From positions 43,455 to 107,454 of the IMG/VR virus record IMGVR_UViG_3300031760_000016: a stretch of DNA of 64,000 nt. The stretch is one strand, 5' to 3'. Under the pieces are notes generated by a model. That model saw only the letters and a list, made by a program, of their open reading frames with translations, made no database searches and was not told the origin of the DNA. Of this stretch, positions 48,747 to 63,792 are shown in pieces. How positions within the stretch are numbered: position 1 is the stretch's first letter; each line of letters opens with the position of its first letter. The position numbers and the translations under genes were made by a program. The DNA is from a virus (Duplodnaviria > Heunggongvirae > Uroviricota > Caudoviricetes).

Positions 48747-48950
48747 GGAGCTTGGATTGCGAAATCTTCACTTGGTCGGAGCTGGGTACGGGGTCGCACG
48801 GCTGCAGTGATCTGCATGCGGCGTGCCCGCTGCTCGCCGAACTCTGGCGCCGTCGGTGCCCGTCGTCATCTCGGGTCCCTCCGTCGTCCCGACAATTTGT
48901 TACTCTGGATATGATCGCAGAGCACTCGCAAAGAGTAATGCGTTGTGAAA
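48747..48950 (-). repeat. Non-coding element A (paralog of element B upstream of the RT)
   Basis: Shares ggagcttggat at one end and tcccgacaatttgttactcYggatRtgatcRcagagca at the other with 53263..53450. The interior has diverged. Confidence 0.6.
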
Positions 48951-49475
48951 CGATAGTTTTGTTGTCTCCTTGCATAAATATAGAATCTGACAGCACCCCT
49001 GAAACAGCGGATGTCTCCGGCGTTTCAGCTATGCTCTAAACGCAGAATTTCGATTTTACCTTGACTTTACATTGAAAAACCTCCTTCGCTGAGTCGAAAA
49101 GCTGGCCTGTCGCGGCACCTGCACAGCGGAACATTCTTGAGTGATGAATGCGGAGCTGTGTACATCAGGGAGGTTAAAAGGAACCGTAGGTTCCTTTGAA
49201 AACCCTGACTATGCGTCACTCCGGTGAAGCACGCAGAGCTGCGTCTCAGAGGATATGTACTGATCCGCAAATGTTCGTGCCGCGACCTGCCGTGTCTGTC
49301 ATCTGCGTTTACCAGGGCTTTGAACCTGCTGCATTGTCCCGGGAATGCAGGCCGCATTACAGATTGCGGATGGGGAAGGGGAAAACCATCCGCAAAATGC
49401 CAGCTGGTCTGGAAACCTGATCACACGCCAGATGGAACGCTGTGAAGGCTTGGCGCATGTACCAGGGTGGAAAAG

Positions 49476-49943
49476 TCAGTCGTTGAGCAAGGCGATGCAC
49501 CTGTCAACAATCTCACGGGTCAGGCCGGTATTGAAATCCGTCTTGACCAGATGCTCCATGTGATCGCCCATATCGGAATCGTCGTCGAGTATGACATAGC
49601 GTTCTGTGTTGGGGTGGCGACTGAACCATGCGGTAATGTCGTCGCCGCGCTCGCTTCCGACATAAGGCGTTTGATCCGCCACCTCGATGCCGTGATGATG
49701 AAGCTGAGTGATCAGGTTGTCATATGCCGTAGGAATTCTGCGCCATGCGGATGAGATGACGATCCTCGCGCCGGTCTCATCCACCAACAGCTTGAGCAGG
49801 CGGAGCGCCCGGTCTTCCAACAGATCCTCTGCGTAGACCCGGACGCCCTCCTCTTTATACATTCTCTGTGCCCAGGTGCCGTTGTTCAAAACGCCATCGA
49901 CATCCAGGAAGATAACTTTTTCCAAACCCTCCAGTGGGATCAC
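49476..49943 (-). CDS. HAD-superfamily phosphatase-like protein
   Basis: 155 aa. VIFLDVDGVLNNG (HAD motif I DxDGT/V), then ISSAWR and ILDDDSD blocks. Confidence 0.5.
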   Translation of the reverse strand: MIPLEGLEKVIFLDVDGVLNNGTWAQRMYKEEGVRVYAEDLLEDRALRLLKLLVDETGARIVISSAWRRIPTAYDNLITQLHHHGIEVADQTPYVGSERGDDITAWFSRHPNTERYVILDDDSDMGDHMEHLVKTDFNTGLTREIVDRCIALLND

Positions 49944-50135
49944 CCCTTGATGCCGTACTTTTCGCAGTACGCTTCAATGAACTTGATCATTTCCTCTTCC
50001 TCGGGGAAGAAGGGGTCGCGGCCGTTTGCCGCCATTTCGCCGAGGGCGTTCGACATGAGCTGCCCGAATCGCCAGTCGGGCAGCCTCCTCCACGCCTTTG
50101 CCAGGCGGTTGCAGAACGCCTGAATGCGATCGGGA

Positions 50136-50546
50136 TCACGCACGGATCTCAACCCCTTTCACATACTCGGTGCTGACCTTCAGCACGATCGGAATCTCGT
50201 AGACGCCGGCGGGAATGTTGATGATCGCGGGAGCCACAGCGGCAGTGTCGTCATGCTCCACAACGGCCTCCGGACGGCTCTCAGCGGCTGCCTGAGCGGC
50301 CGCAATCTCGTTCGCAGCTTCTTCCTTGGCAACGGATTCGACCGCCTCAGCGGCCTCCTGAGCGGCCTGAGCGGCAGCGATTTCACGCTGCATCTTTTCT
50401 TCTGCGTGAAGCTTGGTGAAGAAGTTGTAGATTGTGGTCGGCGCATAACCCAGAGCTACTGCGATCTGCTTGACGGTCGCACCGCGCTTGCGCATTTCCA
50501 GGATCATGGTGGCGTCGTTCTTGATACCGTTGTACTTGCAATTCAT
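50136..50546 (-). CDS. HTH DNA-binding protein
   Basis: 136 aa. RGATVKQIAVALGYAPTTIYNF is a helix-turn-helix; Ala/Glu-rich linker. Confidence 0.45.
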   Translation of the reverse strand: MNCKYNGIKNDATMILEMRKRGATVKQIAVALGYAPTTIYNFFTKLHAEEKMQREIAAAQAAQEAAEAVESVAKEEAANEIAAAQAAAESRPEAVVEHDDTAAVAPAIINIPAGVYEIPIVLKVSTEYVKGVEIRA

Positions 50547-51489
50547 ATTATGTACCTCCTACATATTCAATAGTGTTGGTGTGGATTTGGATTACATCAG
50601 AAACCCGGCGGTAACGAAAACCTCGTTGCCGCCGGAAACGCCGGTGATGTGCTCGCCGGTGAACTGGAATACCGCCTGATCCAGTTCCTCAAGGGAACCG
50701 ATGTCGTCGCCGCTGCCCAGCGGCATGGTGACGAAGTAGTGACGGTCGCAGAGAAACAGGATGAACTGGTTCGTGGTCGCTTCCAGGACGCCACAGTAGG
50801 ACTCGGTGCGGAACGAGCGCACTTTGTCAAATCCCATGCCGTTGACCGGGATCAAAAGCCGCTTAACCTCTACCATGCATATCCCCTCCTTGAACTGCTC
50901 TGAAATGGTCGGTCCTCATTGTGGAAAAGTAGCGAAAACCCGAGAAGCTGGTCTGGTCGGTCACGAAGAAGTCCCCGAGCTCAATACCTGAGCTGTCGCG
51001 GAACAGCGTATCGGAATCGATCCAGAAACGCTTTCCGATGGAGACCTGCTTCGGAAACGTGGGGCGGGCCAGAACGCATTCGACTTCAATCACTTTTACC
51101 TCCTTATAAAGTGTCGGTTATTGCCATCACCCGCAGATTTTGCCGGTGACGATGTCCACGTCAAAGCTGTCGCAGTGGCCGTCCAGATCCGGAATGGACG
51201 CGACCACCGAGACGACCTTGTGGAATTTGTTCCACGTTTCAGACTGATGCATGACGGGCTTCTGCGCCATGACATGCCATTCACGCACCGCGCCCTCCTT
51301 CAGGACGATCGCTCTGACGGATTCAGTGACGCTGCGCGGCAGTTTCCTTTTGCGCACTCTGTTCAGCCTCCTCGCTAATGTACTCGTGGTAATCGGATTC
51401 GGACGCGAAGAGCATCTTCATCCCGTTGGGAAGAAACCCGATGTAACCGGTGTCCGTCCAGAAACCCTTCATAGAGCACCTCCGTAAGT

Positions 51490-51690
51490 TCACACCCAGC
51501 GGCGGTTCACAGCGCCGCAGTACGGGCAGGGGATGATGGCGTAATCGCCTTCGTACTTGAGCCATTTGTAATCCACGGCGAAGATGCACTTGCACCGCAT
51601 GCAGCCGATCTCGGTCAGATCGGCTTCCTCGACCACGTAGTGCTTGGTGAAGTATTTGCTGCGCGGCCGTTCCGATTCAGGTTTTGCCAT
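51490..51690 (-). CDS. Small zinc-ribbon protein
   Basis: 66 aa, CMRCKC...CPYCG. Confidence 0.35.
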   Translation of the reverse strand: MAKPESERPRSKYFTKHYVVEEADLTEIGCMRCKCIFAVDYKWLKYEGDYAIIPCPYCGAVNRRWV

Positions 51691-51956
51691 TGCGCCCCTC
51701 CAGGATTTCGTTGTGCTTCGGCTTGATGACGCGCCACGCCATCAGCGTGTCCTCGATCCCGTCGTAAAGCTCTCCGTAGTCGGAACCGTAGATGATCGCG
51801 GCGTCGGCGTCCTCATAACGCTCATCATTGGCGATGGAAATGTCACGCTCCTCAAGAAAATCCTCGAAGATGTCAATGACCTGCCCGATGAATTCGTGCA
51901 GGTCACTTTCGCTCTGAATGCAATTCTTTGCCAAATCGATTCCCTCCCATCGGCGT

Positions 51957-53102
51957 TCAGGACTGTTCCTCAGATCTCAGCACGCTGCGGATCATCTTCA
52001 TGACGTTGACCCCGTGCTTTTCGTTAAACCACTTGATGAACTCCTCGACGTACTTCTTTTCGACCATCTTGTAGTAGCTGATCTGGCCGGAAAGCACATA
52101 GACGTCGTGGATATCCCACTTATCACCGCTCTGGTAATCCCTTATGAAGCTGGTGAGCGCCGCCTTGAGCTGGAGCTTCTTCTTGCGGCCGATGGTGATC
52201 TGATTGTCCCTGTTGAGCATGACGCCCAGATTCCAGTTCCTTCCGGCGCTGGATCCGTAGCGCGTCTTTTCGTCCTTCAGCTGGAACGGGGCGTTGAAGC
52301 TTGCCAGAACGGAATTGATATAGTCGCACATCTCCTTCGGATCGAAATCCTGCCTGTGCGAAAGCTGGATGTCATCGGCATACCGGGTGTAGACAAAACC
52401 CTTCTTGACCACGTCATTCATGATGCGGTGGTCGATGGGAACCATCATCAGGTTTGTCAGGGTGGGGGAGATCGGCGTTCCCTGCGGAAGCCCGCCGTCG
52501 AGGAAACACAGGCTCAGGGCTTTGGCAAGTTCATCCCTGCCGCCGGGAGCTTTGACGACTTCGCTGAACGGGAAGATGCGGGAAACCATATCGAACAGGA
52601 ATTCCTCAGTGGTGCTGCCGAAGAAATTGGAGAAATCCGTTTTCAGGAACCACCGGCTTTTGTTCTGCTGGTGGCGCTTGATGGCGTCGATGGTACTGCG
52701 CCCCTTGACGTAGGCGAAAGCCGCCGTGTGATACAGCGCACCGAAGTTGTTTTCCAGAATCGTGCGGAGCGTGCGCAGAGCGCCCATCAGTTCCGGCAGC
52801 GGTTCATCGATCTTGCGGTAACCCTTGGTGCGCTTGGGGATGTAAAACGTGTGGTAGAGCGAATGGCGATCCTTTTCAAACAGAAAAGCATAGGACGTAT
52901 TGAACGTGTGCAGAAGGCTGATGAGACCGGGGACGTTGAGATTGCGGGTGTAAGCCGGGCTGACCCAGTTCACCAGATGAGTCACCGTGCCGGTGATCTG
53001 GTGCTTGGGCGTGTCCCAGCCAAGCGGAACCCTGCCGAGAAGCACATCCTCAAACGAAAGCTGATGTGTTCTCGGCGTTTGCATGACGGTGATGTACGGC
53101 AT
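51957..53102 (-). CDS. Reverse transcriptase (retron/defense-RT-like, no maturase or endonuclease domain)
   Basis: RT motifs FLKTDFSNFFGS (motif 2), GLPQGTPISPTLTNL (motif 4), VYTRYADDIQL (YADD, motif 5), NLGV...ITIGRKKK (motifs 6-7). Start set to the ATG at 53102 with AAAGGAG 6 nt upstream; the ORF-track TTG start is at 53129. Confidence 0.75.
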   Translation of the reverse strand: MPYITVMQTPRTHQLSFEDVLLGRVPLGWDTPKHQITGTVTHLVNWVSPAYTRNLNVPGLISLLHTFNTSYAFLFEKDRHSLYHTFYIPKRTKGYRKIDEPLPELMGALRTLRTILENNFGALYHTAAFAYVKGRSTIDAIKRHQQNKSRWFLKTDFSNFFGSTTEEFLFDMVSRIFPFSEVVKAPGGRDELAKALSLCFLDGGLPQGTPISPTLTNLMMVPIDHRIMNDVVKKGFVYTRYADDIQLSHRQDFDPKEMCDYINSVLASFNAPFQLKDEKTRYGSSAGRNWNLGVMLNRDNQITIGRKKKLQLKAALTSFIRDYQSGDKWDIHDVYVLSGQISYYKMVEKKYVEEFIKWFNEKHGVNVMKMIRSVLRSEEQS

Positions 53103-53262
53103 ACGAACTCCTTTCTGATTGATCTGCAATCTGAATGCAGTGCGCGGTCTTCAGGGTAACCAGGAAGAGCTGAGGGATGTGATGATTGGGAGTCGAAACC
53201 CTGCCTGCTGAATCTCGCCGACTGCTGATGTGTCGGGAAAATGCGATCTTTTTCGACCTGTT

Positions 53263-53450
53263 GGAGCTTGGATGACCTAGAAGTGGTGGCTTTCAAGCTC
53301 GGACCGGTCGTCGCCGGATCAGCACCTGGGAGGAGAGCTCGATCGGCCGCCTTCCGCCGGCTGCCGCGGGTCGCCCCGTCTTCCCGACAATTTGTTACTC
53401 CGGATGTGATCACAGAGCATTGGGAAACCCAATAATGCATTGCAGACTTG
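53263..53450 (-). repeat. Non-coding element B, within the structured leader upstream of the RT
   Basis: Paralog of element A. Followed on the minus strand by hairpins, e.g. GCCCGCC-GGAA-GGCGGGC at 53450-53467 and AUUGGG-UUU-CCCAAU. Confidence 0.6.
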
Positions 53451-53472
53451 CCCGCCTTCCGGCGGGCTTGAA

Positions 53473-54237
53473 TCACATTTGAATCATGGACCGGAACAGT
53501 TCCAGAAGACCTTCGTGCTCATGGGTTTTTGAGGTTTCCAGACACCAGATGTGCTCGCCGGAATCAATTTCGATCACAGGGGCGTCCGGCTTGATGCGAA
53601 TCATGGGGTGGATGAGAAACACATCCCGGCACAAACCATGTGTCATGGAGCCAAAGTTGTATATGAGGATATGCCCTGCGTCCGAAACCCCGGTTCGAGT
53701 CATGATGTTCGAGTGGGGAACTTCGCCGATGGCCTGACTGAGCGCCGGGAGATACTCACCGTCCGGAACCTCGGGTACATCCACAAGCTCAGACTCGCTG
53801 GGGATCGAAACCTTGCAGGTGACCGTCTGCGCCCTGCCAAATTCCTTAATACTTCCGGGCGGAACGGCGATCGGAACCTCTCGGTCGATCAGCATGGCCA
53901 GCTCTTCGTCGTCAAAGAAGGTAAGGAAGCCGTCATACACGCCGTCCGGGCATCTGTCATACTGATGCATCGGAGTGTATGTAAAATCCTTGCCGCCGTT
54001 CAGCCACTGGAAGAGGTTGGAATGGGGAAAGTAGTTGTTGCCATAAGCGCGTTTTGCGGAAGACGGGCTTTCGAATTCGCGCCTGTCGAAGGAACGCCTG
54101 CCGACAGACCTCATGGCGAAAAGGTCATTGGAATCGGAAACCTTTTTCCAGAGAATGTCATCGTTGTTATCACCCAGATTGACGCCGATGTTCAGCTTGG
54201 TTCCCAGCGGCAGTTCACTGATCGTCAATATGCTCAC
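53473..54237 (-). CDS. Hypothetical protein
   Basis: 254 aa, no recognisable motif. Lies between the E1-like gene and the RT leader. Confidence 0.45.
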   Translation of the reverse strand: MSILTISELPLGTKLNIGVNLGDNNDDILWKKVSDSNDLFAMRSVGRRSFDRREFESPSSAKRAYGNNYFPHSNLFQWLNGGKDFTYTPMHQYDRCPDGVYDGFLTFFDDEELAMLIDREVPIAVPPGSIKEFGRAQTVTCKVSIPSESELVDVPEVPDGEYLPALSQAIGEVPHSNIMTRTGVSDAGHILIYNFGSMTHGLCRDVFLIHPMIRIKPDAPVIEIDSGEHIWCLETSKTHEHEGLLELFRSMIQM

Positions 54238-54259
54238 CTCCTTCGAGAATCGGGATTGA

Positions 54260-54955
54260 TCAGAACGCGTCCAGCTGGTAGGTGAAGGCGTCCAACAGGA
54301 TCAGCTTCTTGATGCCGTTGCCCTTGGCAAAGTTAATGAAGTTGGAAACCCCCAGCGCCACGATCGCCTTGACCGTGGAGCAGACGGACAGGGTCAGGTT
54401 GCAGGCGGAAACCGGCGTTTCGGCCTTGGCTTCATCGTGGGTGAACTGCATCGAGTTCAGAAACGCTTCCACCATCCTGCGATCCTCCCAGTTGGCGGCG
54501 TAATGCTGGGCGTCGGTCAGCCGCATCCGGAAGTCGAACATGCCCTTGATGAACAGGTTGTCCTTGTTGGCGGTGGCGATCTCGCGGCGCAGATCGATGT
54601 TGTCCACGCAGAGGAACACATAGCCGCTCAGCTTCTGGCCGACATAGCCCTTCTCAACCAGTTTCAAATCCCGGTCGATATCGGGATTTATCTTGTGCAG
54701 ATACTCGGCCAGCGCCTGAACCTTGGTCTTGCCGATGTCTTCCTGAGTGAACAGCTGGTTGGCAATGTTGTGGGGCTCGACGAAATCGAAGTCGTACAGG
54801 GTGATGCGGGTGACGCCGTAGCGCACCAGATTCTCAGCGACCGTGGAGCCGATCGCGCCGCAGCCGATGATGTGGATGCGCTCAGGGCACTTTTCAGGCT
54901 GGAAAAACTCGTAGCTCTTTGCCAAATCGATCATGAATTCAATCCTCCCTGTCAA
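54260..54955 (-). CDS. ThiF/MoeB/E1-like adenylyltransferase
   Basis: 231 aa. IHIIGCGAIGSTVAENLVRYGVTRITLYDFDFVEPHNIANQ is the Rossmann GxGxxG plus the D.D.VE.SNLNRQ ThiF signature. Confidence 0.7.
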   Translation of the reverse strand: MTGRIEFMIDLAKSYEFFQPEKCPERIHIIGCGAIGSTVAENLVRYGVTRITLYDFDFVEPHNIANQLFTQEDIGKTKVQALAEYLHKINPDIDRDLKLVEKGYVGQKLSGYVFLCVDNIDLRREIATANKDNLFIKGMFDFRMRLTDAQHYAANWEDRRMVEAFLNSMQFTHDEAKAETPVSACNLTLSVCSTVKAIVALGVSNFINFAKGNGIKKLILLDAFTYQLDAF

Positions 54956-55856
54956 ATCCGATCTTGGACTTCTTGCCGAAGATCATTTCGTCGTAGTCGG
55001 TCTCATCGTCCAGATAGAGGCCGGGGTACTGGCCGCTGCCGCCGAAATCCTTTTTCTGCTTGGATTTGGATTTCTTGCTGGTCGGGTAGTTCGGTACATT
55101 CGTACGGGGATAGTCATATCCGCCATAGTTACCATAGACGCCGTAGTTGCCAGAGCCATAGTTGTACGCGGAGTTGATCGAAGCGACATTCCCGGTGGTC
55201 TTGGCGGCCGGCGTGCTGACCTTGACCACGTCCTTGGCGTCGCTCAGGAACGCATCGAAATCGCAATCCTCATCGTAGATTCCGATGTCGACGTCCTTGT
55301 CCTCATACAGGGTGTTGTTCTTCAGGTCGTAAACCTTGATGTTGCGCTCGTTGCGCTTGTTGAAGATGCCGAAGATGTAGAATGCGTCCTCAGCGACCTG
55401 AGCCAGAATGCTTTCCCGGTGCTGATCGTCCACAGCGGACGGGCTGGTGGCCATGTTGACGTGGGAATGCCCATGGAATCGGATCGCGTTCGCGGTATCG
55501 TCATCCATCTCCATGAGCCACTTGGTGTAGCCTTCGAAATCCGTGTTGACCGTCGTCCCGGTCACCACCTGAGGGTAAACCATGATGTCGTGAATGACGA
55601 AGCAGTCGTCGGCCAGGCGCTCCACGGTGCCATGCCAGCCAACCTCGCTGGTAAAGCTGTCGACCAGCGTCTTCATCTTGATATAAGCCCGGGGCGTAAA
55701 CAGAACGGAAACCCCGGTGTCATCCGCGCCCTGATAGGTGAAGTTCTTCTTGTAGTTGATGCTGCCGTCGCTCATGCGGTGCTTGCGCAGCATCTCGTTG
55801 AACTCCTGGGTCATCTGGGCGATCAGTGCCTCAGTGAACTTGATCGGCTTGGACAT
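54939..55856 (-). CDS. JAB/MPN(+) metalloprotease-like protein with Gly/Tyr/Asn-rich low-complexity tail
   Basis: 305 aa. HSHVNMATSPSAVD fits the JAMM zinc motif HxHx7Sx2D. C-terminal region GNYGVYGNYGGYDY is low complexity. Confidence 0.6.
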   Translation of the reverse strand: MSKPIKFTEALIAQMTQEFNEMLRKHRMSDGSINYKKNFTYQGADDTGVSVLFTPRAYIKMKTLVDSFTSEVGWHGTVERLADDCFVIHDIMVYPQVVTGTTVNTDFEGYTKWLMEMDDDTANAIRFHGHSHVNMATSPSAVDDQHRESILAQVAEDAFYIFGIFNKRNERNIKVYDLKNNTLYEDKDVDIGIYDEDCDFDAFLSDAKDVVKVSTPAAKTTGNVASINSAYNYGSGNYGVYGNYGGYDYPRTNVPNYPTSKKSKSKQKKDFGGSGQYPGLYLDDETDYDEMIFGKKSKIGFDRED

Positions 55857-57337
55857 TATTCGTTGCCTCCTTCTGCATTCTCATTCGAATTGGGATCCTG
55901 AGCGTTCAGCCACTCGACGGCTTCCTGAGGGGAGACGTTCTTGCCGTCGGGAAGTTCGATAACCTTCTCAGACGTGGTGAACAGCTGGTCGAGGAACGGA
56001 CCGAAGGTGACGCCTTCGGCGATGTTGATGCTGCCGGCGGAAGCGATGCACTGCATGATCGCGCCGATCGGATCGCCATCGCGAAGTCTTTCCTCGATCA
56101 GCGGGCGATTATTCCCGATGCAGGAGTGCCGATTGAGATGGGTATTGGGAATATAGGAGTTATAATCATCGCCGAAGTAGTGGTTGCGCTCGGTGTCAAC
56201 CATGCCCCGCATATCGATGGCAAAGTAGGCACACATGCGAACCTTGAGGACGGGCTCATCGCTGAAGAGCGCATCCATGAGCTTGCGGCGAACGGCTTTC
56301 TCTCTGAAGAACGGACTGTAGTCGCGTTCATTCCAGATGTGGGAGAAGTTGTTATCAACGAACCGGGAATACATTTCCGGATCGAAATTTACGAGGTAGG
56401 TCTTGATGTGGAAATGGATCATCTGCTCGTACGTGTTGATGATTTCCACGGATTTGTTTCCGATGAAAAACTCTGCGAGCTCATTGGACTCGCAGCCCTG
56501 AGCAATGATGGCCTTCAGGCCGGTCTGGGTGATCCGATAATCTTCGAGCTGCTTGATCAGCCTGCGATAGTTTGCAATAATATCATCGATCTGTACGTTG
56601 GTGTTGTCGATGTCACGCTCAATGGACTGCAAGCGGGCACGATTAGCACGCTTTTCAAAACCGTTGAGCATGCTGCGGATGAGCGTTTCACGCAGGTTGA
56701 AGTTGTCAGCGATGGCAGCCATGGTTTCAATGAAACTCTGAGATCCTTTCTTCTGAAGCGATTCCAGAAGCGAAATCTCAATGGCTTCCAGGGGCTTGTC
56801 CTTGAAATACCAGGGCATGTAGCGGGGAATGAAGGACTGGATGGCGTGGTAACTCTTTATCGTCATCCGCTTCACGAAGATGTAGGAGAGCTTGACCTCG
56901 GGGACGATGAACACAACGGTCGTGATGCCGAGCTTTTCGAAATACTGCTCGACGTCTACCAGTTCCTCTGCGGAATTGAAACCCGTTCGATTGAGTCCCT
57001 TGAAATTCTTGCGGATGCAATCCAGAGCGAATTCCGGATCGTCGTTGTCAACGGACACGGCGTAGACCGTATCCGAACGGTTCCTGGAACCGAAGATGGC
57101 GTCGAAGATGCGGTAGAAGGGGTTGTTTTCGTAGTCGTACTTGGTGTAGCCAGCGCGGAGATTGCGGAACGTAACCCGGTTGTTGCCCAATTCGATGCGC
57201 TTGAGCAGAAGTGCCCGCAACACCGCTACAAAGGTCACATCTTCGCGATACAGGTCACCTCCGACGGACTCGAACAGATTGCCGGCGTGTTCGGAAGTGA
57301 GCATGAGCTCGCTGCTTCTGATGCACTGATTGAACAT
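55856..57337 (-). CDS. Hypothetical protein (493 aa)
   Basis: Long ORF with no recognised motif. Its start overlaps the stop of the JAB gene. Confidence 0.45.
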   Translation of the reverse strand: MFNQCIRSSELMLTSEHAGNLFESVGGDLYREDVTFVAVLRALLLKRIELGNNRVTFRNLRAGYTKYDYENNPFYRIFDAIFGSRNRSDTVYAVSVDNDDPEFALDCIRKNFKGLNRTGFNSAEELVDVEQYFEKLGITTVVFIVPEVKLSYIFVKRMTIKSYHAIQSFIPRYMPWYFKDKPLEAIEISLLESLQKKGSQSFIETMAAIADNFNLRETLIRSMLNGFEKRANRARLQSIERDIDNTNVQIDDIIANYRRLIKQLEDYRITQTGLKAIIAQGCESNELAEFFIGNKSVEIINTYEQMIHFHIKTYLVNFDPEMYSRFVDNNFSHIWNERDYSPFFREKAVRRKLMDALFSDEPVLKVRMCAYFAIDMRGMVDTERNHYFGDDYNSYIPNTHLNRHSCIGNNRPLIEERLRDGDPIGAIMQCIASAGSINIAEGVTFGPFLDQLFTTSEKVIELPDGKNVSPQEAVEWLNAQDPNSNENAEGGNE

Positions 57338-57418
57338 TTTTTGTCACCTCTGCTTCATTAAGAATGCCCCCGGAGACGAGTCCGGGGGCAGTGCGAATGG
57401 GAATCGAAACCAGATCCC

Positions 57419-58060
57419 TTACAGAACCTGGATGTTGTCGCGGATCGCGGCCAGCTCGGCTTCGATCTCAGCGGCGGCGGCGGCGAACTGGGCTTCCACC
57501 TTGTTCAGCTGCAGGATGCCGGTGCCGATGGTCTCCTCAGCCCACTTCTTGGCGTCGGTGACGTCCTCGGGCAGGAGCATGGTCACGATGGCCTTGCCGT
57601 CAGCGTTGGCCTGAGGGGCGAAGCTCACGCCGATGGGGTTGATGCTGCCGGTGCCCTTGCTGGTCACACCCACACGGAAAACCTCCTGCTTGGTGCTGCC
57701 CTCGGTCTCGAACAGCTTCAGGGCGTTGGGGCGGTACTTGCCCAGGGTCTTGATGGAATCCAGATCCGCATCGGATTCCACGACCACGGCGCGGCCGGCG
57801 ACCTTGATCTTGGCAGCGTTGTCGGCCTTGACGACGCTCAGCAGGTAGCAGCTGGTGGTGATGCCCAGATCGGCGAAGGTGCGATCCAGCATGCCGGGCT
57901 GCAGAGTAGCGCCGTCCAGCATCAGCTGACCCATGGAGTAGTCGACACCGTTCTCTTCCAGAGCCTGGCGCAGGGTGTTGTTCTCGTCGACGATGACACG
58001 GTTGCGATTGGTGGTGTTGCCGATGGTGACATTGATCATACTATGTACCTCCGTAATCAA
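57419..58060 (-). CDS. Hypothetical protein with possible N-terminal ubiquitin-like beta-grasp domain
   Basis: 213 aa. First ~75 aa (MINVTIGNTTNRNRVIVDENNTLRQALEENGVDYSMGQLMLDGATLQ...CYLLSVVKADNA) have ThiS/MoaD/ubiquitin-like periodicity. The C-terminus is Ala-rich. Confidence 0.3.
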   Translation of the reverse strand: MITEVHSMINVTIGNTTNRNRVIVDENNTLRQALEENGVDYSMGQLMLDGATLQPGMLDRTFADLGITTSCYLLSVVKADNAAKIKVAGRAVVVESDADLDSIKTLGKYRPNALKLFETEGSTKQEVFRVGVTSKGTGSINPIGVSFAPQANADGKAIVTMLLPEDVTDAKKWAEETIGTGILQLNKVEAQFAAAAAEIEAELAAIRDNIQVL

Positions 58061-58893
58061 TTCGTTTTTGGATTTGGAAACAGATTGGAAACCCGGATTC
58101 TCAGACCGTCGGTGCTCTTACTCTTTTCATTGGAATTCCCTTCCTTTCTGGCGATTGACTCGCGCCCTTCAATTCGTACCGCATTTCTCAGCCGCATTTC
58201 TGCGTTGCCCGCTCTGAACCACGTGGAGGTGAATGCTTTTCTACTTCTCAGAGCATTTGGGCAGCGTTTCCCACGCGCTGCCCTGAAAGGAGGAGACCAT
58301 GAAGAATTTCATTTTAATTTCAAAATCCGTTTGCCGCTTAAAGCGTTGCCCGCCCTGAACCGCGTGGAGGTTGGATTACTCAGGGCATTTAGGCGGCGTC
58401 CCCGCAAACGCCGCCCAGGAACGAGGGGGAAAGGAGGAACCCCCTGTCCCTTAGTTGTAAGTGTCGAAGATGGAAGGTACCATGATCTCGGTCCCATCCG
58501 AAATGGGAATCATGGTCGGACGGTAGATCGTGATTCCGTGCTCATGCAGGATGTCTTCGATCTGATCCTCAATGGCTTCCAGAGTTTTAGTGTCTATGCC
58601 GATGTCTTCCAGTGAAATGTCATCTGGCTCGACACCGATCAACCTGCAGATGAATTCGTGGGTGTACTGGTCGATGTCGTCCTGCCGGCGGATGACCTCT
58701 TCGTAGTCATCCGAATTCTCGGCCATATTGAATTCCTCTTCATCATCCTCGATCTCGATGGTGAGAGAATCCGCGTCGATCACCGGCTCAGAAACCGGTG
58801 GGGGAGTGTTGCCAGTGTAGGCAACGATCGTTTTTTCCTTCAAAAGACGGCACCTCCGCTATGTAATCACAACCGGATTGAAAACCGGCGCTG

Positions 58894-59295
58894 TCACTGT
58901 CGCATCAGAATGGAATTGAAAAGTGGAAGCAGTTCAGATTCAGAAGGAAGATCCTTCTCGGGTTCCGGGTGCTTGAGCATACCCGGGCTGAAGAGGTAGT
59001 CATGGGGTTCGACGGTCACGACGATGCCGTTTCGTTCGAAACCCTTGATGGTGAAGATCAGACCGCAGTATTTCTGCATGCAATCCAGAAACATGAGATC
59101 ACCGCAGTCGATGCCTCCGTCGGAATAACCGAATTCCTCGCCCATTTCCTCATATTCCTTGACCTGGACGAGGTCACCGACCTTGAAATTGTGTTTGGGT
59201 TTGATTTCAAATCCCTCCTTCGTAGTTATTAACCGCAGGCCGGACTTATCGGGTTCAGATTCCCTGCCGTCCGCCTTGGCCGGAGCGGATGCCAT
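58894..59295 (-). CDS. Hypothetical protein
   Basis: 133 aa. Confidence 0.35.
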   Translation of the reverse strand: MASAPAKADGRESEPDKSGLRLITTKEGFEIKPKHNFKVGDLVQVKEYEEMGEEFGYSDGGIDCGDLMFLDCMQKYCGLIFTIKGFERNGIVVTVEPHDYLFSPGMLKHPEPEKDLPSESELLPLFNSILMRQ

Positions 59296-59832
59296 CCAGC
59301 CTGCGGCTATGCGCTTTTTCTGGCGGGTTCAACGCATGAACCACGATGTGGTACTAGGGAAGCCGGAAGTGTACATTTCCTCCCCCCTTTCAATTGGAAT
59401 CAAAAAGCACCACCCTGCGATTGGGCGGTGCTATACGCCGAGGACATGCTTGAAGTCTGAAAAGTCTGTCGGTTTAAATTCCGGTTCAGAACTTTCAGTG
59501 ACTGGCTCAAAGAAGCTTTTGTGCCAGAAGTACATGTCGAAATCTTCGGGATCCGGAACCTTTTCCCTGACATCATCCGCATTCGGAATCAGTTCCCCGT
59601 CGTCGTCGATGTGATCGACTCTGAACACAAGACCCGAGAACTGCGACATATCCGGAACGAAGTTGTCAACATCCGTTGACCAAATCGAACCGTCATTGGA
59701 AATCCCATACTCTTCCGCAAGGGAATCCCAAGTGCGAACCCGGACGAGTTCGCCTTCAGCGAAATCCAGAATCGGAATCAAAACCATCTCCTTTCTGTAA
59801 GATAAAAGCGCCCTTTTGAAGGGGCGCTTAGG

Positions 59833-60219
59833 TCAGGTCTTTTCGACGAATATGCCTGGGATCGTGCAGGAAATGGAAACCTCTCCAGAATCGGTGGCAT
59901 CCATACTGACAGCGGAGCACTCGCGGAGCACATCGCAGAACTTCTTCACCTCGTCGCCGAACAGATCGAAAACGATGAAGTTTGCGGTTATTCCGCACGG
60001 TGGAACGAGCGGATCAAGATCAACCGAAACGATTTTGCCGCCCAAATCCTTGGCTGCCTTGTCAAAGAACATCGCGAGCTTCTTCAGCTTTTCGAGCTGA
60101 ACCTCATCGACTTCGAAATCCTCAGGTTTCATGTTCTGCATTTCGAGGTCGAAAGCTGCAACGAGCTTTCTGGCAAATTCTTTGTCGGTCATGTTGCTGT
60201 CAAAGAAGCTATCAGTCAT
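59833..60219 (-). CDS. Hypothetical protein
   Basis: 128 aa. Confidence 0.35.
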   Translation of the reverse strand: MTDSFFDSNMTDKEFARKLVAAFDLEMQNMKPEDFEVDEVQLEKLKKLAMFFDKAAKDLGGKIVSVDLDPLVPPCGITANFIVFDLFGDEVKKFCDVLRECSAVSMDATDSGEVSISCTIPGIFVEKT

Positions 60220-60239
60220 TATGTTTGCAACACCTCTTT

Positions 60240-60971
60240 CTAATCTGATTTCAAAACTCCATTGCCGGAGTTATTGAAGCTGTGTTGAGTCGCATCGCGG
60301 GTATATCTCAAACCACGATACAGTTTTCTCATGTCATACTGCGGATTAGATTGCTTGTCGAGTTGAGCGAATACTCTTTCCATGATGGGCAAAACCGATT
60401 CGTCGTTAATTGTCTGCCCTTTTGTCGCGAGATCAAAAACCCCATCAACAAACTCGGGTACAGTTAACCAGTGTTCAGTATATATTGCCTTCATGGAAAG
60501 CTTTCTGTACACAAATCGCGGTTGAATCACTTTCTGCCTTATAGTTAAGCCGTTGTCAAAACCTGAATCGTTTTTTGATTCGAGATTTCCAACACCAGAC
60601 TCAACTTGTTCAACCGCCCTGATTAACTGATTGATTGCCTTCCTGGCGTGATACAGGTCGTAATACTGTTCTCCGTTGTTCTTCCTCTCGACCATGGTTG
60701 GATAGATATCCTCCATGATACTAAGAGTTACTTGGTAATCAATTACAACCGATTTCTGAACCAATTCAAAAACCCTGTCAACAAACTCTGGTATGGTCAA
60801 CCAGTATTTAGTGCATGTTTTACTTATCGGTAATCTCCAGTACAGAAAATGCAGTCGCTCAGCTTTCTCCCTTGTACTCGTCACCTCGTTCACTGGCAAA
60901 TCACCTCCGGTTTCAAATCCCGAGGTGATTATACCATTTTCCAGCCCGCTTTTCAACAGGCGATGCTGCAA
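60240..60971 (-). CDS. Hypothetical protein with internal ~90-aa tandem duplication
   Basis: 243 aa. Two copies of a (T)xYWLTIPEFVDxVFxL...IMExIFxxL module. Confidence 0.4.
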   Translation of the reverse strand: MQHRLLKSGLENGIITSGFETGGDLPVNEVTSTREKAERLHFLYWRLPISKTCTKYWLTIPEFVDRVFELVQKSVVIDYQVTLSIMEDIYPTMVERKNNGEQYYDLYHARKAINQLIRAVEQVESGVGNLESKNDSGFDNGLTIRQKVIQPRFVYRKLSMKAIYTEHWLTVPEFVDGVFDLATKGQTINDESVLPIMERVFAQLDKQSNPQYDMRKLYRGLRYTRDATQHSFNNSGNGVLKSD

Positions 60972-61404
60972 TCGGAATTGAAACCGATTCTGATTTCGAT
61001 TCCGGGACGGCTGCCAATGACGTCATCCATGGTCGCCATCACCAGCTTATGGGCTTCTGCGATCGCGCACCGATCGCATTCGATATGCATGCCCCGCATG
61101 CAGCAGATGTTGCAGGAATTGCTGAAACTCTTTTCAGCCTGAAACCTCGTGGAGGCTTCGATTTGGCGATTCACGCCAATCTGTTCGAATTTGGTCATGA
61201 TATTATTACCTCACTATCGCGGCTACAATGACGGAACCGAAGATGATTATGATTGTCCCCATGGCCGCAATCAGATTAGGAATGAAAACCTTGATCGCAT
61301 TAGCGGTCATATGTACCGAACACTTAAAAACCCGGATAACCTTGGCACGCTGTCTTCTGCGTTGAGCGGCCTGCCTGCGCTCAAGGTACGTCACTCCATC
61401 ACCT

Positions 61405-62200
61405 CCAAATCCAAATCAGATTCGATTCCAGACCTTCAGATGCCCATGGCGAGCATCGTGAAAGCCCTTCTGCCGCGGTGCCAGACTTCGACGTCCAAAC
61501 CGCTTTTGTACCAGCGCATCGCTACGCTGCGAGACTTCGTGGTTTCCTGAGTCTCGCAGTTCACGTAGAAACTGCCTTTCAGGATCAAGTCGAAAAACCT
61601 CCATTCATTTTGGATTTCAAACCCTTGACTCTGCGTTTACACGGGCTTGTCACCGTCAGAGGCCGCATTAAGGGAGGCGCAGTCAATGTCAAGTAGTCGG
61701 CCAAATGCTTTGTACAGACGCTGCGCCCAGCCGTCTGGACAGTTCTTTGACCCGCGTGGATTATGCACCAACACGCTGGTGCTCGCGGAGAGTTTGAGTA
61801 TCACCACCTTAAAAACCCAAATTGGATTCAATTCCAGATCCTCAGGTGTGCCCGCTTTTTCTGGGACACCCAGCCCAAGAGCCTGAGCCGCTCTCGCTCT
61901 TTGCTCCACCGGAACTTTGGCCTACCCGATGGCATAGGCGAAAAACCCAAATCAGATTCGATTCCAGACCCTCAGCAGAACGACCATACACCGAGATCGG
62001 TATTGCGACTGAGCTGCACAGATCCGTCAGTTGCAGACAGGACATCGTGGATCCCAGCGTAATCGGGATTGCTGTCGATCTTGGTGGCCAGTTCGGCCTT
62101 TTCACACAGGGTCAGTTCGTGGGTGACCCAGATGATTCCATCAGTGAACATTTTCCACCTCGCTTGATTCAGATTCAATTCCAGACCCTCACGGTCTGGA
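61405..62200 (-). repeat. Four dispersed copies of a ~35-nt motif (minus strand CTGAGGGTCTGGAATCGAATCTGATTTGGGTTTTT) in a ~900-nt region without credible genes
   Basis: Cores at 61417-61434, 61821-61838, 61953-61970 and 62170-62187. The listed ORFs across them are translations of the repeat (ELNPIWVF / ESNLIWVF). Confidence 0.7.
61622..61672. repeat. Element X (ccttgactctgcgtt...ggcttgtcacc...gccgcattaagg), paralog of 63731..63792
   Basis: Three conserved blocks shared with the second copy. Confidence 0.6.
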
Positions 62201-62296
62201 GCCTACCAGCATCGCAGACAGAGCTCACAAGACTTTGCATCTATTGACTCTTTGGCTCAGATGTGATGCTGGCGGGCATTCTGGGCAGATGCCGCG

Positions 62297-63163
62297 TTAC
62301 GCGGCGGTTTCTTCAGCAGGCTGTTCCTTGGTGACCACGATGGTCTCGGTCGCAGCCTCAGCGGGGGCAACCTCAGGCTTCTTCGCCTTCTTGGCAGCCT
62401 TCTCGCCATCGGGCTTGACCATCTTGTAATCGACGGAATACACCAGATCGTTCGTGAGACGGTAGAGGACTTCGGCAACCAGCCGGGTGACGGTGCTGGT
62501 ATTGGCAACCTTCAGGGTCAGCTTCTGGCTGCCGCGGCGGGTGTAGGAGTAAAGCAGATACTTCACGTCGAAGTTGTTGATCTTGTAGACGTTCTTGCCA
62601 TTGCCATCGTCCACGAACAGGATGGAGTCGATGACAGTCTGGAGCAGCTTGGTCATCTGCGAGTTGGAGACGGGAGTTCCGCCCATATCCAGCTCACGGG
62701 CCTTGTCGGACATGCGGTAGGTGGTGGCAACCTTCTGGGCAACTTCCTTGCCCGAGTGACCGAGATCGTCATGGATGCGGATGCAGAGCAGCTCACCCAT
62801 CTTTTCGACCTTGTACTTCCAGAGGGTGTCCTTCTGAAAGAACTTGAACAGAGCGGCCAGGTCGATCTGCTTCTCAGCATCCTCGACCAGTTCCATACCG
62901 AGGATGACGTCGCCGTCACGGTTGATCTTGTGGCGGAGAACCGGGAACCAGCCGCGCTTGATGCCCGCGAGAATCGGGTTCTCAGCGTCGCGGCACTCGC
63001 CGAAGGTATCCAGCTGGGACTGCTGAGCGTATTCCTTCTCAGCGTCCTTGACAGCACTTTCGGCCTTGTTGATGGCTTCGAGGTTCTTGTCATTTACGGC
63101 CTTGTTGTAGGCCGCGATTGCGGCGACAACCTTCGCCTTAGCTTCCATACCGAGTTTCGTCAT
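62297..63163 (-). CDS. Hypothetical protein with Lys/Ala/Pro/Glu-rich histone-H1-like tail
   Basis: Start set to the ATG at 63163 (RBS AAGGGGG). C-terminus KPDGEKAAKKAKKPEVAPAEAATE is low complexity. Confidence 0.45.
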   Translation of the reverse strand: MTKLGMEAKAKVVAAIAAYNKAVNDKNLEAINKAESAVKDAEKEYAQQSQLDTFGECRDAENPILAGIKRGWFPVLRHKINRDGDVILGMELVEDAEKQIDLAALFKFFQKDTLWKYKVEKMGELLCIRIHDDLGHSGKEVAQKVATTYRMSDKARELDMGGTPVSNSQMTKLLQTVIDSILFVDDGNGKNVYKINNFDVKYLLYSYTRRGSQKLTLKVANTSTVTRLVAEVLYRLTNDLVYSVDYKMVKPDGEKAAKKAKKPEVAPAEAATETIVVTKEQPAEETAA

Positions 63164-63730: not shown

Positions 63731-63792
63731 CCTTGACTCTGCGTTAGGGGCTTGTCACCCGCCAGCGTTGTTCACACTGGGCCGCATTAAGG
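63731..63792. repeat. Element Y, second copy of the X element, immediately preceding the terminal tandem array
   Basis: Same three blocks in the same order. Confidence 0.6.

What the first reader, a model, noticed from the sequence alone, without database searches (positions are those of the whole stretch)
53473..58060. E1-like (ThiF) + JAB/MPN + possible Ubl-containing gene cluster in the same minus-strand gene block upstream of the RT
The minus-strand order is: 213-aa protein with a putative N-terminal beta-grasp (57419-58060), 493-aa unknown, JAB metalloprotease (HxHx7Sx2D) with a G/Y/N-rich tail, minimal ThiF-like E1 (231 aa), 254-aa unknown, then the ncRNA-like leader and the RT. Start and stop codons overlap between the 493-aa and JAB genes and between the JAB and E1 genes, which suggests translational coupling; further downstream a ~340-nt non-coding leader separates the E1-like gene from the RT gene, so RT co-transcription with the cluster is uncertain. 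E1 + JAB (+Ubl) modules are hallmarks of bacterial ubiquitin-like conjugation systems (Bil/Bub-like, CBASS Cap2/Cap3, CysO-MoeZ-Mec). No E2-like protein is recognisable. E1/JAB genes located in the same gene block as a reverse transcriptase on a phage is, to my knowledge, undescribed. It could be a novel defense or counter-defense module, for example removing Ubl marks from phage proteins, or marking them.
Basis: partly seen in the sequence, partly recalled or inferred. Interest (0 to 1): 0.8.

Follow-up and report, generated by a model that had tools for sequence, protein, structure and literature searches.

The report
Phage ubiquitin-like cascade tied to retron
A family of large gut Clostridia phages carries a ubiquitin-like protein-tagging kit (tag, probable E2, JAB protease, minimal E1) that almost always sits next to a retron-type reverse transcriptase and its RNA, a pairing I did not find described in the literature I could search.

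Summary
On the minus strand there are four genes in the BilABCD order, Ubl-E2-DUB-E1.

- **B (493 aa):** its C-terminal half resembles UBC/RWD folds and has an invariant PN-x-H-x5-C motif. The E2 call is suggestive, not proven.
- **C:** a JAB protease with an invariant E...HSH-x7-S-x2-D motif.
- **D:** a minimal ThiF-type E1 of 224 aa.

A 324-nt structured RNA follows, whose ends pair with compensatory changes. After it comes a retron-like RT of 381 aa.

In 11 divergent relatives, only these five genes are always shared; flanking genes are not. Of 52 E1-sampled genome loci with enough flank, 50 have the RT downstream and 51 have B, JAB and Cdom upstream. Stand-alone tags mostly end exactly at ...KADNA, or carry 1-4 extra residues. 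This points to a reactive C-terminal Ala that JAB exposes.

The biological role (defence, counter-defence or other) is untested. I found no description of a retron-like RT paired with a Ubl cascade.

I rate it a new variant of known kinds, with high interest.

The parts
58179..58386 (-). Two tandem HDV-like ribozyme matches (58179-58254 and 58323-58386) in the gap just upstream of gene A. They may process the 5' end of the cassette transcript. Whether they belong to the system is uncertain.
   Evidence: Rfam HDV-F-prausnitzii: 43.3 and 39 bits against a gathering score of 44. The repeat pair D8 covers the same two copies. A match above gathering (45.9 bits) lies about 200 nt upstream of A in L005. 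None was found in 7 other loci.
57815..58039 (-). Ubl domain of protein A (residues 1-75). It is a ubiquitin-like beta-grasp ending in the invariant motif VVKADNA. Ala75 is the predicted reactive C-terminus.
57419..57814 (-). C-terminal domain of A ('Cdom', residues 76-206, plus the stop codon). Its function is unknown. In most relatives it is a separate gene placed first in the cassette.
   Evidence: HMM mapping finds Cdom as a separate ORF upstream of a separate Ubl ORF in most of the 70 loci; it is fused as Ubl-Cdom only in the window clade and in L019, L039, L067 and L074. No Pfam, PHROG, NCBIfam or PDB sequence hit.
57365..57390 (-). GC-rich hairpin followed by a T-rich run directly after gene A. 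It looks like an attenuator or partial terminator between the tag gene and the enzyme genes.
   Evidence: Terminator-like hit with 10 pairs, 8 of them G-C. Hairpins in the same position but with different sequences occur after the Ubl/A gene in 10 of 11 loci, z -2 to -6. A tRNA gene occupies that position in L038 and L042.
55856..57337 (-). Protein B (493 aa): an N-terminal alpha/beta domain, a long helix (227-280), and a C-terminal UBC/RWD-like domain (about 286-480; DNA 55898-56482). Motif P397-N398-x-H400-x5-C406-x-G408 (P397 nearly invariant, the others invariant; Cys406 codon at 56120-56122). It is the candidate E2.
54939..55856 (-). Protein C (305 aa): a JAB/MPN+ metalloprotease (E71; H130-S-H132-x7-S140-x2-D143; DNA 55428-55469) with a low-complexity tail rich in G, Y, N and K.
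   Evidence: The motif is invariant in 8/8. The family profile hits RPN11 at E 0.058 with E, HxH, S and D aligned. Weak Prok-JAB hits in 3/8 members, best 0.0016.
54260..54934 (-). Protein D (224 aa): a minimal ThiF/MoeB-type E1 adenylating enzyme. Motifs: GCGxxGS, DFDxVExHNxANQ, DIGKxK, VDNIxxR and the invariant Cys in TPxxAC.
   Evidence: Pfam ThiF 2.6e-24. PADLOC E1-E2 models down to 7e-20. PDB Uba1 and UBA5 at about 1e-14. Invariant residues.
53473..54237 (-). Protein E (254 aa, DUF6273). It is a variable insert between the E1 and the RNA, not a core part.
   Evidence: Pfam DUF6273 2.9e-6, 27.7 bits against a cut-off of 23.5. Homologues in only 4 of 11 loci and in a minority of the 70 genome loci.
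53123..53446 (-). Structured non-coding RNA of about 324 nt. It is bounded by the inverted repeat a1 (53446-53439, TCTGCAAT) and a2 (53130-53123, ATTGCAGA), with a hairpin right after a1. It has the layout of a retron msr-msd.
   Evidence: On a MAFFT alignment made without structure information, the terminal helix is 90.5% paired. Four of its 8 pairs show compensatory changes, 0/500 shuffles reach the observed score, and slid controls fall to 30-47%. The same helix with varied outer pairs is seen in many of 58 further loci.
51957..53102 (-). Retron-like reverse transcriptase (381 aa).
   Evidence: NCBIfam retron St85 family at 1.1e-54, 185.7 bits, below the cut-off of 235. PADLOC RT_II-A 2.8e-49. 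YADD catalytic motif. Region X reads [DN]AxxxH and RT7 reads xLG, with the key H and G invariant. Present downstream of the E1 in 50/52 loci.

Best explanation
The block is a phage-borne ubiquitin-like (Ubl) conjugation cascade of the BilABCD type. It has the same gene order as Bil (Ubl, E2, JAB deubiquitinase, E1) and is genetically coupled to a retron-like reverse transcriptase and its structured RNA.

Inferred mechanism:
1. The tag is made as a precursor. In this window it is fused to the 130-aa Cdom. In most relatives it is a free 75-aa protein with 0-4 extra residues.
2. The JAB protease cuts after Ala75 (...KADNA|), exposing the C-terminal carboxylate.
3. The minimal E1 adenylates that carboxylate and probably takes the tag as a thioester on its invariant Cys.
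4. The tag passes to Cys406 of protein B, the E2 candidate, and then to an amino group of a target.
5. JAB can also reverse the mark.

Cdom is the best candidate for a partner or substrate, because it is always present and in some lineages is fused head-to-tail to the tag's C-terminus. A hairpin or tRNA after the tag gene probably makes the tag more abundant than the enzymes.

The RT and its RNA act with this cascade as one conserved unit. They could be a sensor or regulator, as in retron defence systems, or a regulated enzyme, as the CD-NTase is in type II CBASS.

What is shown: the folds, the motifs, the gene order, the co-conservation, the C-terminal pattern and the RNA covariation. What is inferred: every enzymatic step, the target and the biological role. 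I lean towards conflict between phages or between phage and host. My estimates are roughly 50% superinfection or defence function of a temperate phage, 25% counter-defence and 25% other.
For: Fold and motif evidence:
- Ubl fold.
- JAB motif.
- E1.
- E2-like fold and the PN-x-H-x5-C motif, with the same Asn-to-Cys spacing as the HPN...C of UbcH5 (spacing from memory).
- Gene order identical to bilA-bilB-bilC-bilD, and BilC pre-processes BilA tails of up to nine residues.

Tag C-terminus:
- At least 25 free tags end at KADNA*.
- Others have 1-4 extra residues.
- One locus has a tandem di-Ubl with a capping Lys.
- One tag ends in Gly-Gly.
- Sources.

Co-conservation:
- Only A, B, C, D and the RT are shared by 11/11 divergent loci, while flanking genes reach at most 5/11.
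- The RT lies downstream of the E1 in 50/52 loci, and B + JAB + Cdom lie upstream in 51/52.
- Two loci sampled through the RT carry the same cassette.

Other:
- RNA covariation.
- Phage identity of the window (DNA polymerase, RNR, DnaB, endolysin).
- Temperate relatives with integrases, and copies inside 160-430 kb bacterial contigs.
Against: - The E1 lacks the conserved Arg of the SNLxRQ motif (it reads HNxANQ) and has no separate Cys domain, so it may only adenylate.
- A C-terminal Ala, rather than Gly, has not been shown to be conjugated for any Ubl that I could check.
- Two loci (L022, L065) keep the Ubl genes with no RT within 7-10 kb. In others the RT is up to 7 kb away. The two modules may therefore be separable.
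- All loci appear to come from one broad phage lineage, so part of the linkage could be inherited synteny.
- No PADLOC or NCBIfam defence model matches A, B or C.
Confidence: 0.62

Rival explanations
1. There are two independent modules that merely sit side by side. One is a Ubl conjugation cassette and the other a stand-alone retron-like element. Both are inherited together because all carriers descend from one phage lineage with a conserved early-gene layout.
For: - The spacing between the E1 and the RT is variable (0.3-7 kb), with unrelated genes inserted.
- Two loci lack the RT nearby.
- Bil systems and retrons each work alone in known cases.
- Some flanking genes are shared by subsets of loci, which shows common ancestry.
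Against: - Among about 30 neighbouring genes, only the five core genes are kept in 11/11 loci, although B has diverged to 23-37% identity.
- The same-strand order E1 then RT is kept in 50/52 loci, with a median gap of about 390 nt that is just the RNA.
- Loci found through the RT also carry the cassette.
Confidence: 0.25
2. The system has no E2 and does not tag proteins in the ubiquitin manner. The ThiF-like enzyme only adenylates the tag's C-terminus, as in ThiS/MoaD sulfur transfer, Urm1/SAMP-type E2-independent chemistry, or MccB-type peptide adenylation. B would be a structural or targeting protein.
For: - The E1 is minimal, of the ThiF/MoeB size class. Its best NCBIfam hit is ThiF (1.8e-22, well below cut-off), and MccB, TcdA and MoeB are among the PDB hits.
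- The evidence for an E2 fold in B is marginal.
Against: - No ThiG/ThiH, MoaE, rhodanese, cysteine desulfurase or CysM genes occur in the window block or in any of the neighbourhoods with precomputed Pfam calls.
- The tag ends in Asn-Ala, not Gly-Gly.
- The four-gene order matches Bil.
- The context is phage early genes.
Confidence: 0.1
3. Protein A is a lambda TAPI-like tail assembly protein (a Ubl plus a C-terminal domain), processed by a JAB protease during virion assembly. The cluster would then be structural rather than a signalling or conflict system.
For: Lambdoid and T1 phages encode a Ubl fused to a small C-terminal domain, next to a JAB-containing protein (PMC1779556). A has the same two-domain layout.
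Against: - No PHROG tail-assembly hit for A or C.
- No NlpC/P60 domain and no TAPJ-like neighbour.
- The block lies among early and replication-side small genes, not in the tail module.
- TAPI systems have no E1, whereas here an E1 and the RT are always present.
Confidence: 0.03

Closest known systems
BilABCD (bacterial ISG15-like) ubiquitination systems, types I and II
   Same: - The four-gene order Ubl-E2-JAB-E1.
- A single beta-grasp Ubl whose best structural matches include BilA.
- A tail of the form ...KAxxA/G followed by extra residues that the JAB removes.
- No E3.
   Different: - It is carried by phages and prophages of Clostridia, not by bacterial defence islands.
- The tag ends in Ala (Asn-Ala or Gly-Ala), not Gly.
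- The E2 candidate is embedded in a 490-aa protein with a coiled coil, and has no detectable sequence similarity to BilB.
- The E1 is a 224-aa single adenylation domain without the IAD or CYS domains of BilD.
- There is an extra obligatory Cdom protein.
- It is tightly linked to a retron-like RT and RNA.
- No Bil, Prok-E2 or Prok-JAB model passes its threshold.
Retrons (RT + msr-msd ncRNA + effector), 13 types in the classification of Mestre et al. 2020
   Same: - The RT is most similar to retron RTs (St85 / type II-A models).
- The RNA lies immediately upstream of the RT and has a terminal a1/a2 helix.
- The RT and RNA are accompanied by conserved extra genes, as in tripartite retrons.
- Retrons carried on prophages are known.
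   Different: - The RT scores below the curated cut-off.
- It reads [DN]AxxxH and xLG where retrons have NAXXH and VTG.
- The RNA is long, about 280-340 nt.
- The accompanying genes are a multi-enzyme Ubl cascade, which is not among the described effector types.
- msDNA production is untested.
Type II CBASS Cap2 (E1-E2 fusion) / Cap3 (JAB) regulators
   Same: An E1/E2/JAB set is attached to a nucleotide-polymerising enzyme as part of one system. The E1 region scores against the PADLOC 'E1-E2' (Cap2) models and the 6A-MBL cap2_3 model.
   Different: - Here the E1 and the E2 candidate are separate proteins.
- A dedicated Ubl exists, whereas in CBASS the CD-NTase tail itself is conjugated.
- The partner enzyme is an RT, not a CD-NTase.
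- No cyclic-nucleotide effector is present.
ThiF + JAB gene pair in crAss-like phages (crAss001 Gp76/Gp77), and minimal ThiF genes in other phages
   Same: A ThiF-type E1 lies next to a JAB-like metalloprotease in the replication-side region of a gut phage. Sequence similarity of the E1 is about 25% for crAss-like phages and about 30% for Xanthomonas jumbo phages.
   Different: - The crAss E1 is 383 aa and its JAB protein 414 aa.
- No RT is annotated in the 12.5-kb crAss001 stretch examined.
- The four genes scanned around the pair gave no other Pfam hit; they were not tested with the Ubl, B or Cdom models.
- The function of that pair is also unknown.

Membership tests
BilABCD-type Ubl conjugation system | A ubiquitin-like beta-grasp modifier | tested here: met
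BilABCD-type Ubl conjugation system | A conserved C-terminal Gly, exposed by trimming a short variable tail | tested here: not met
   The trimming pattern is present (0-4 extra residues, or a fused domain). The conserved terminal residue, however, is Ala after Asn or Gly. Only one of about 50 tags ends in Gly-Gly.
BilABCD-type Ubl conjugation system | An E2 with a UBC fold and a catalytic Cys | tested here: inconclusive
BilABCD-type Ubl conjugation system | A JAB/MPN+ deubiquitinase | tested here: met
   Invariant E...HxH-x7-S-x2-D motif. RPN11 profile match with the motif residues aligned. Weak Prok-JAB hits.
BilABCD-type Ubl conjugation system | An E1 with inactive and active adenylation domains and a mobile Cys domain | tested here: not met
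   The E1 is a single 224-aa adenylation domain. The match covers only the ThiF core. BilD is 535 aa, with IAD, AAD and CYS domains.
BilABCD-type Ubl conjugation system | Gene order Ubl-E2-DUB-E1 | tested here: met
   The window and more than 60 loci have this order.
BilABCD-type Ubl conjugation system | Protein conjugation activity and anti-phage defence | not testable with these tools
   This needs biochemistry and infection assays.
Retron | An RT of the retron clade with NAXXH (region X) and VTG (RT7) | tested here: inconclusive
   Best matches are retron models (1e-54, 3e-49), but below the NCBIfam cut-off. The motifs read [DN]AxxxH and xLG, with the key H and G invariant.
Retron | A contiguous ncRNA whose ends pair (a1/a2), upstream of the RT | tested here: met
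   The terminal helix is 90.5% paired, with 4/8 pairs compensatory and 0/500 shuffles reaching the score. The helix recurs in many more loci. No Rfam family matched the leader in the E-value scan of 48000-64000.
Retron | Production of msDNA branched from a priming G | not testable with these tools
   A G follows a1 in most loci (AAT-G), but whether it is the branch point cannot be told from sequence.
Retron | An accessory effector of one of the 13 described types | tested here: not met
   The classification paper does not mention ThiF, JAB or ubiquitin at all. No PADLOC retron effector model matched.
ThiF/MoeB sulfur-carrier activation | A Gly-Gly-terminated ThiS/MoaD carrier with thiazole or molybdopterin synthase, or sulfurtransferase, genes nearby | tested here: not met
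   The tag ends in Asn-Ala. No such genes were seen in the window block or in the neighbourhoods with precomputed Pfam calls. NCBIfam ThiF and MoeB scores are far below their cut-offs.
Type II CBASS Cap2/Cap3 | A fused E1-E2 protein, a JAB protein and a CD-NTase | tested here: not met
   Only the E1 core (about 70 residues) of the PADLOC E1-E2 models matches. The E1 is a separate 224-aa protein. No CD-NTase was seen in any locus.
Lambda TAPI/TAPK tail assembly Ubl-JAB | The Ubl protein lies inside the tail gene module, next to JAB+NlpC/P60 (TAPK) and TAPJ | tested here: not met
   No PHROG tail hits and no NlpC/P60 domain. The block lies among early and replication-side genes.

The most novel reading that the evidence does not exclude
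This is a new class of RT-based system in which a retron-like RT and its RNA are mechanistically wired to a full ubiquitin-like cascade. Either the RT-DNA/RNA complex gates when the cascade fires, or the cascade tags the RT, Cdom or a nucleoprotein complex to switch RT-DNA synthesis on or off. Temperate Clostridia phages would use it in phage-phage or phage-host conflict. It would also establish a Ubl that is activated through a C-terminal alanine.
Probability: 0.4. Interest if true: 0.9.

Novelty: new variant of a known kind. Interest (0 to 1): 0.78.

Why it matters
Bacterial ubiquitin-like conjugation (Bil, Bub, CBASS Cap2/Cap3) and retrons are two active areas of anti-phage immunity research. 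So far they have been treated as separate systems owned by the host.

Here a complete Ubl cascade is encoded by the virus side. It is widespread: more than 2,400 clusters of protein B at 50% identity, and about 70 species-level genomes. It is almost always attached to a retron-like RT.

If the two halves work together, this would be a new way to control or exploit reverse-transcribed DNA. It would also be a new effector or regulator logic for retrons, and the first Ubl family shown to use a C-terminal alanine.

The natural variants form a ready-made series for testing JAB processing and substrate choice: a free tag, a capped tag, a di-Ubl and a Ubl-Cdom fusion. At least one carrier is a cultured isolate (Clostridiales Family XIII PM5-7).

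Tried and rejected
- **DGR hypothesis for the RT and the 254-aa protein:** no template/variable repeat was found in 51000-59000, and the RT matches retron models, so I rejected it.
- **Close relatives in public phage sets:** megablast against GenBank phages found nothing. Single-protein scans of IMG/VR with JAB and B gave nothing useful.
- **Family libraries:** Pfam, NCBIfam, PHROGs and PADLOC gave no hits for A, B or C.
- **B against the PDB by sequence:** only coiled-coil noise.
- **B against the PDB by Foldseek:** nothing significant.
The top local alignment did put PN..C on HPN..C.
- **Cdom against the PDB by profile:** no credible hit.
- **Exhaustive profile search with B:** it returned only full-length family members in the top 150, so it gave no bridge to known E2 families.
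- **Generic 'best long-range helix versus shuffles' test for the RNA:** uninformative, because chance helices of 8-9 bp are common. I replaced it with pair counting on an alignment made without structure information.
- **HDV-like ribozyme upstream of the cassette:** it is not general. It was absent in 7 further loci.
- **Literature searches:** searches for retron + ThiF, JAB or Ubl, and for phage-encoded retrons, found nothing that describes this arrangement.

Full report
**1. What is in the sequence**

Comparison with homologues corrects three start codons.
- A begins at ATG 58039 and is 206 aa. The identical database protein P0030 and all relatives start there.
- The E1 begins at ATG 54934 and is 224 aa, behind a GGGAGGA ribosome-binding site.
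- The RT begins at ATG 53102 and is 381 aa, MPYITV....

The stop of B and the start of JAB overlap by one base, TAATG. The JAB stop and the E1 start are 4 nt apart and do not overlap.

The window comes from a phage. It encodes a family-A-like DNA polymerase, an RNR, a DnaB helicase and an endolysin. The identical protein B lies on a 116-kb contig.

**2. Identity of the proteins**

*D, the E1.*
- It is a ThiF-type E1: Pfam 2.6e-24, PADLOC E1-E2 models down to 7e-20, and PDB Uba1 and UBA5 at about 1e-14.
- Eight homologues keep GCGxxGS, DIGKxK, VDNIxxR and a Cys in TPxxAC. From memory, that Cys sits at the ThiF C184 / MoeB C187 position.
- The usual SNLxRQ motif reads HNxANQ, so the conserved Arg is missing.

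*C, the JAB protease.*
- It gave no Pfam hit on its own.
- E71, H130, H132, S140 and D143 are invariant.
- The family profile aligns these residues with the RPN11 active site, E 0.058.
- Three of eight members give weak Prok-JAB hits.

*A, the tag.*
- It was modelled from 32 homologues with pLDDT 88.
- Residues 1-70 form a beta-grasp and residues 72-74 are disordered. A second domain with a helical hairpin follows.
- A profile of the domain aligns end-to-end with BilA, E 0.0034.

*B, the E2 candidate.*
- It was modelled from 27 homologues with pLDDT 89. It has an N-terminal alpha/beta domain, a 54-residue helix and a C-terminal alpha/beta domain.
  - FANCL, Spc24/25, three UBC enzymes and two RWD domains, at Z between 5.3 and 5.8.
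- Residues N398, H400, C406 and G408 are invariant, and P397 nearly so.
- The Asn-to-Cys spacing equals that of the E2 HPN...C motif (UbcH5 numbering from memory).
- The order of secondary structure around the motif fits a UBC fold with an insertion.
- Against this, Foldseek found nothing significant, and profile comparisons with E2 sequences and with BilB were not significant.
- I therefore treat 'B is the E2' as probable, at about 65%, and not established.

*E.*
- It is a DUF6273 protein.

**3. Comparative genomics**

B has only weakly similar relatives, at 23-37% identity. I looked up seven of them, then three relatives found through A, one GenBank contig (MT835544) and two found through the RT. 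Every one has the same series:

tag/Cdom - B - JAB - E1 - (optional genes) - gap - RT

A BLASTP of about 30 window genes from 44-64 kb against 11 loci gave a clear split. Only A, B, C, D and the RT are present in 11/11. No flanking gene exceeds 5/11, and E is in 4/11.

A scan of one genome per species with the E1 alignment returned 70 loci. Most are Clostridia MAGs from animal, human and termite guts: Oscillospiraceae, Lachnospiraceae, Christensenellaceae and Acutalibacteraceae. Many contigs are 100-130 kb. Some copies lie inside 160-430 kb contigs, including one from an isolate.

HMM mapping of those loci gave the following.
- The RT is downstream on the same strand in 50 of 52 loci with at least 3 kb of flank. 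The median distance from the E1 is about 390 nt.
- B, JAB and Cdom are present in 51 of 52 loci with enough upstream flank.

An exhaustive profile search finds 2,426 representatives of B at 50% clustering, so the family is large and unannotated. Integrases near several loci indicate temperate phages.

**4. The tag's C-terminus**

In most loci Cdom and the tag are separate genes, with Cdom first and then a tag of about 75 aa. The window clade and a few others have a Ubl-Cdom fusion instead.
- At least 25 free tags end exactly at ...VVKADNA*.
- Others add 1-4 residues: A, V, C, R, AA, RK, NN, SK, YAA, NVK, LAL, GNDV or RVIV.
- A subgroup ends in KADGA plus 1-3 residues, and one tag ends in KAYGG*.
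- L008 encodes a tandem di-Ubl. Each copy ends in KGDGA, and the protein finishes with an extra Ala-Lys.
- One fusion has a 14-residue insert directly after KADNA.

This is the pattern of a Ubl precursor that must be trimmed. It matches what was shown for BilA and BilC, except that the invariant last residue is Ala. The gene order Ubl-E2-DUB-E1 is the order reported as constant for BilABCD.

**5. The RNA and the RT**

The RT matches retron models best: St85 family at 1e-54 and PADLOC type II-A at 3e-49. Its score is below the curated cut-off. Where retrons have NAXXH and VTG, this family reads [DN]AxxxH and xLG, keeping the most conserved H and G.

The leader has a conserved 5' element, CTGCAAT, and a 3' element, ATTGCAG, about 310 nt apart, just upstream of the RT's ribosome-binding site. 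I counted pairs on the MAFFT alignment, which was made without structure information.
- The terminal helix is 90.5% paired.
- Four of its eight pairs show compensatory changes.
- No shuffle out of 500 reached the observed score.
- Sliding the partner columns drops pairing to 30-47%.

Many further loci show the same helix with different outer pairs. This is the a1/a2 layout of a retron msr-msd. No Rfam family matched the leader in the E-value scan of 48000-64000.

**6. Expression signals**

A GC-rich hairpin with a T-run follows the tag gene in 10 of 11 loci, with different sequences. Two loci have a tRNA gene in that position. This fits higher expression of the tag than of the enzymes.

**7. 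Interpretation**

The best-supported reading is a Bil-like Ubl conjugation cascade carried by temperate Clostridia phages and coupled to a retron-like RT and RNA.

The biochemical steps are all inferred from family knowledge and the conserved residues: JAB trimming at Ala75, adenylation, possible E1 and B thioesters, transfer to a target, and reversal by JAB. Cdom is a candidate partner or substrate, because it is always present and in some lineages is fused to the tag's C-terminus.

The role of the RT link is unknown. Two loci without a nearby RT and the variable spacers keep the 'two neighbours' rival alive, at about 25%.

I reject the following readings on gene content and motifs (section Membership tests):
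- sulfur-carrier chemistry;
- CBASS Cap2/Cap3 membership;
- a lambda TAPI-like tail-assembly role.

**8. Novelty**

The retron classification paper lists no ThiF, JAB or ubiquitin partner. Full-text searches for retron with ThiF, JAB or Ubl, and for phage-encoded retrons, found nothing that describes this arrangement. PADLOC and NCBIfam have no models for A, B or C.

Phage ThiF + JAB pairs are annotated in crAss-like phages but are uncharacterised.

I classify the finding as a new variant of known kinds: Bil-type conjugation plus a retron-type RT. There is a 40% chance that it is a mechanistically new RT-Ubl system.

Noticed in passing
window 58179-58254 and 58323-58386 (-); L005 9027-9094 (+): HDV-like ribozyme matches (Rfam HDV-F-prausnitzii) lie directly upstream of the tag gene: two tandem copies in the window (43.3 and 39 bits, just under the gathering score of 44) and one above gathering in L005. 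They were absent in 7 other related loci.
   Followed up: partly
window 49295-49363, 61623-61674, 63731-63793 (-): Three twister-P1 ribozyme-like matches (59, 50 and 35 bits; gathering score 67) lie on the same strand as the early genes, in intergenic positions. The rest of the window was not scanned at this sensitivity.
   Followed up: no
window 29525-29804 and 21269-22174 (-): Two group I intron matches score above gathering (82 and 51 bits). They lie at or next to the DnaB-like helicase (29792-30832) and the ribonucleotide reductase (19773-21281) genes.
   Followed up: no
window 37229-38865 and 47813-47885 (-): The window has a cluster of five tRNA genes and one isolated tRNA gene. Related loci carry tRNA arrays (17 downstream of the RT in L020) and tmRNA-like genes (L042, L060).
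   Followed up: no
L087 11833-12267; L088 11161-11611: An RNase H gene (PF00075) lies directly downstream of the RT in both loci found through the RT. This could serve maturation of the RT-DNA. The short ORFs downstream of the RT in the window were not scanned against any family library, so an equivalent there is not excluded.
   Followed up: no
L087 15126-18937; L009 14982-16754; L011 16420-17936; L002 19463-19990; L005 16677-17495; L010 5283-5714; L013 4834-5193: The neighbourhoods of the cassette repeatedly hold genes typical of phage counter-defence or takeover: NAD salvage (NAMPT, PRPP-synthetase-like, nicotinamidase/isochorismatase, NMNAT-like, NMN transporter), Thg1-like, a Macro domain and Lar restriction alleviation.
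   Followed up: no
L015 (crAss001, NC_049977) 4250-6648; L014 (Xanthomonas phage PhiXhv-15) 5989-6672: crAss001 Gp77 ('metalloprotease') gives a weak Prok-JAB hit and sits next to Gp76 (ThiF). Minimal ThiF genes with about 30% identity to the window E1 occur in Xanthomonas/Erwinia jumbo phages. tblastn matches also occur in 98 GenBank phage records, including Flavobacterium and Listeria phages. E1-like genes in phages therefore seem broader than this family.
   Followed up: partly
L022 (no RT within 10 kb of the E1), L065 (none within 6.9 kb); L082 and L086 (fragmented hits): Two loci keep Cdom, tag, B, JAB and E1 without a nearby RT. L022 has a 1.1-kb gap and unrelated genes there instead. 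Two loci inside bacterial contigs show broken B and RT reading frames, probably decaying prophage copies.
   Followed up: partly
L012 7112-9484; L062 4993-6478; L065 719-2206; L008 3927-4397: The tag genes vary in copy number. L012 has a free Cdom, two Ubl-Cdom fusions and a free tag in a row. L062 and L065 have two Cdom+tag pairs. L008 has a tandem di-Ubl.
   Followed up: partly
window 54260-54934 (protein D residues 62-67, numbering of the 231-aa ORF): The E1 family has HNxANQ where E1/ThiF/MoeB enzymes have SNLxRQ, so the conserved ATP-contacting Arg is replaced by Asn in all 8 aligned members. The effect on adenylation is unknown.
   Followed up: no
window 7399-8505 (+) and 53473-54237 (-): The optional 254-aa DUF6273 protein and a 368-aa plus-strand protein in the same window both match PHROG 10993 ('Hoc-like head decoration'). 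The insert between the E1 and the RT may therefore derive from a surface-display type domain.
   Followed up: no
window 53449-53467 (-): A GC-rich hairpin (GCCCGCC GGAA GGCGGGC) lies between the stop of the 254-aa gene and the a1 element of the RNA. It could terminate upstream transcription or mark the 5' end of the RNA.
   Followed up: no
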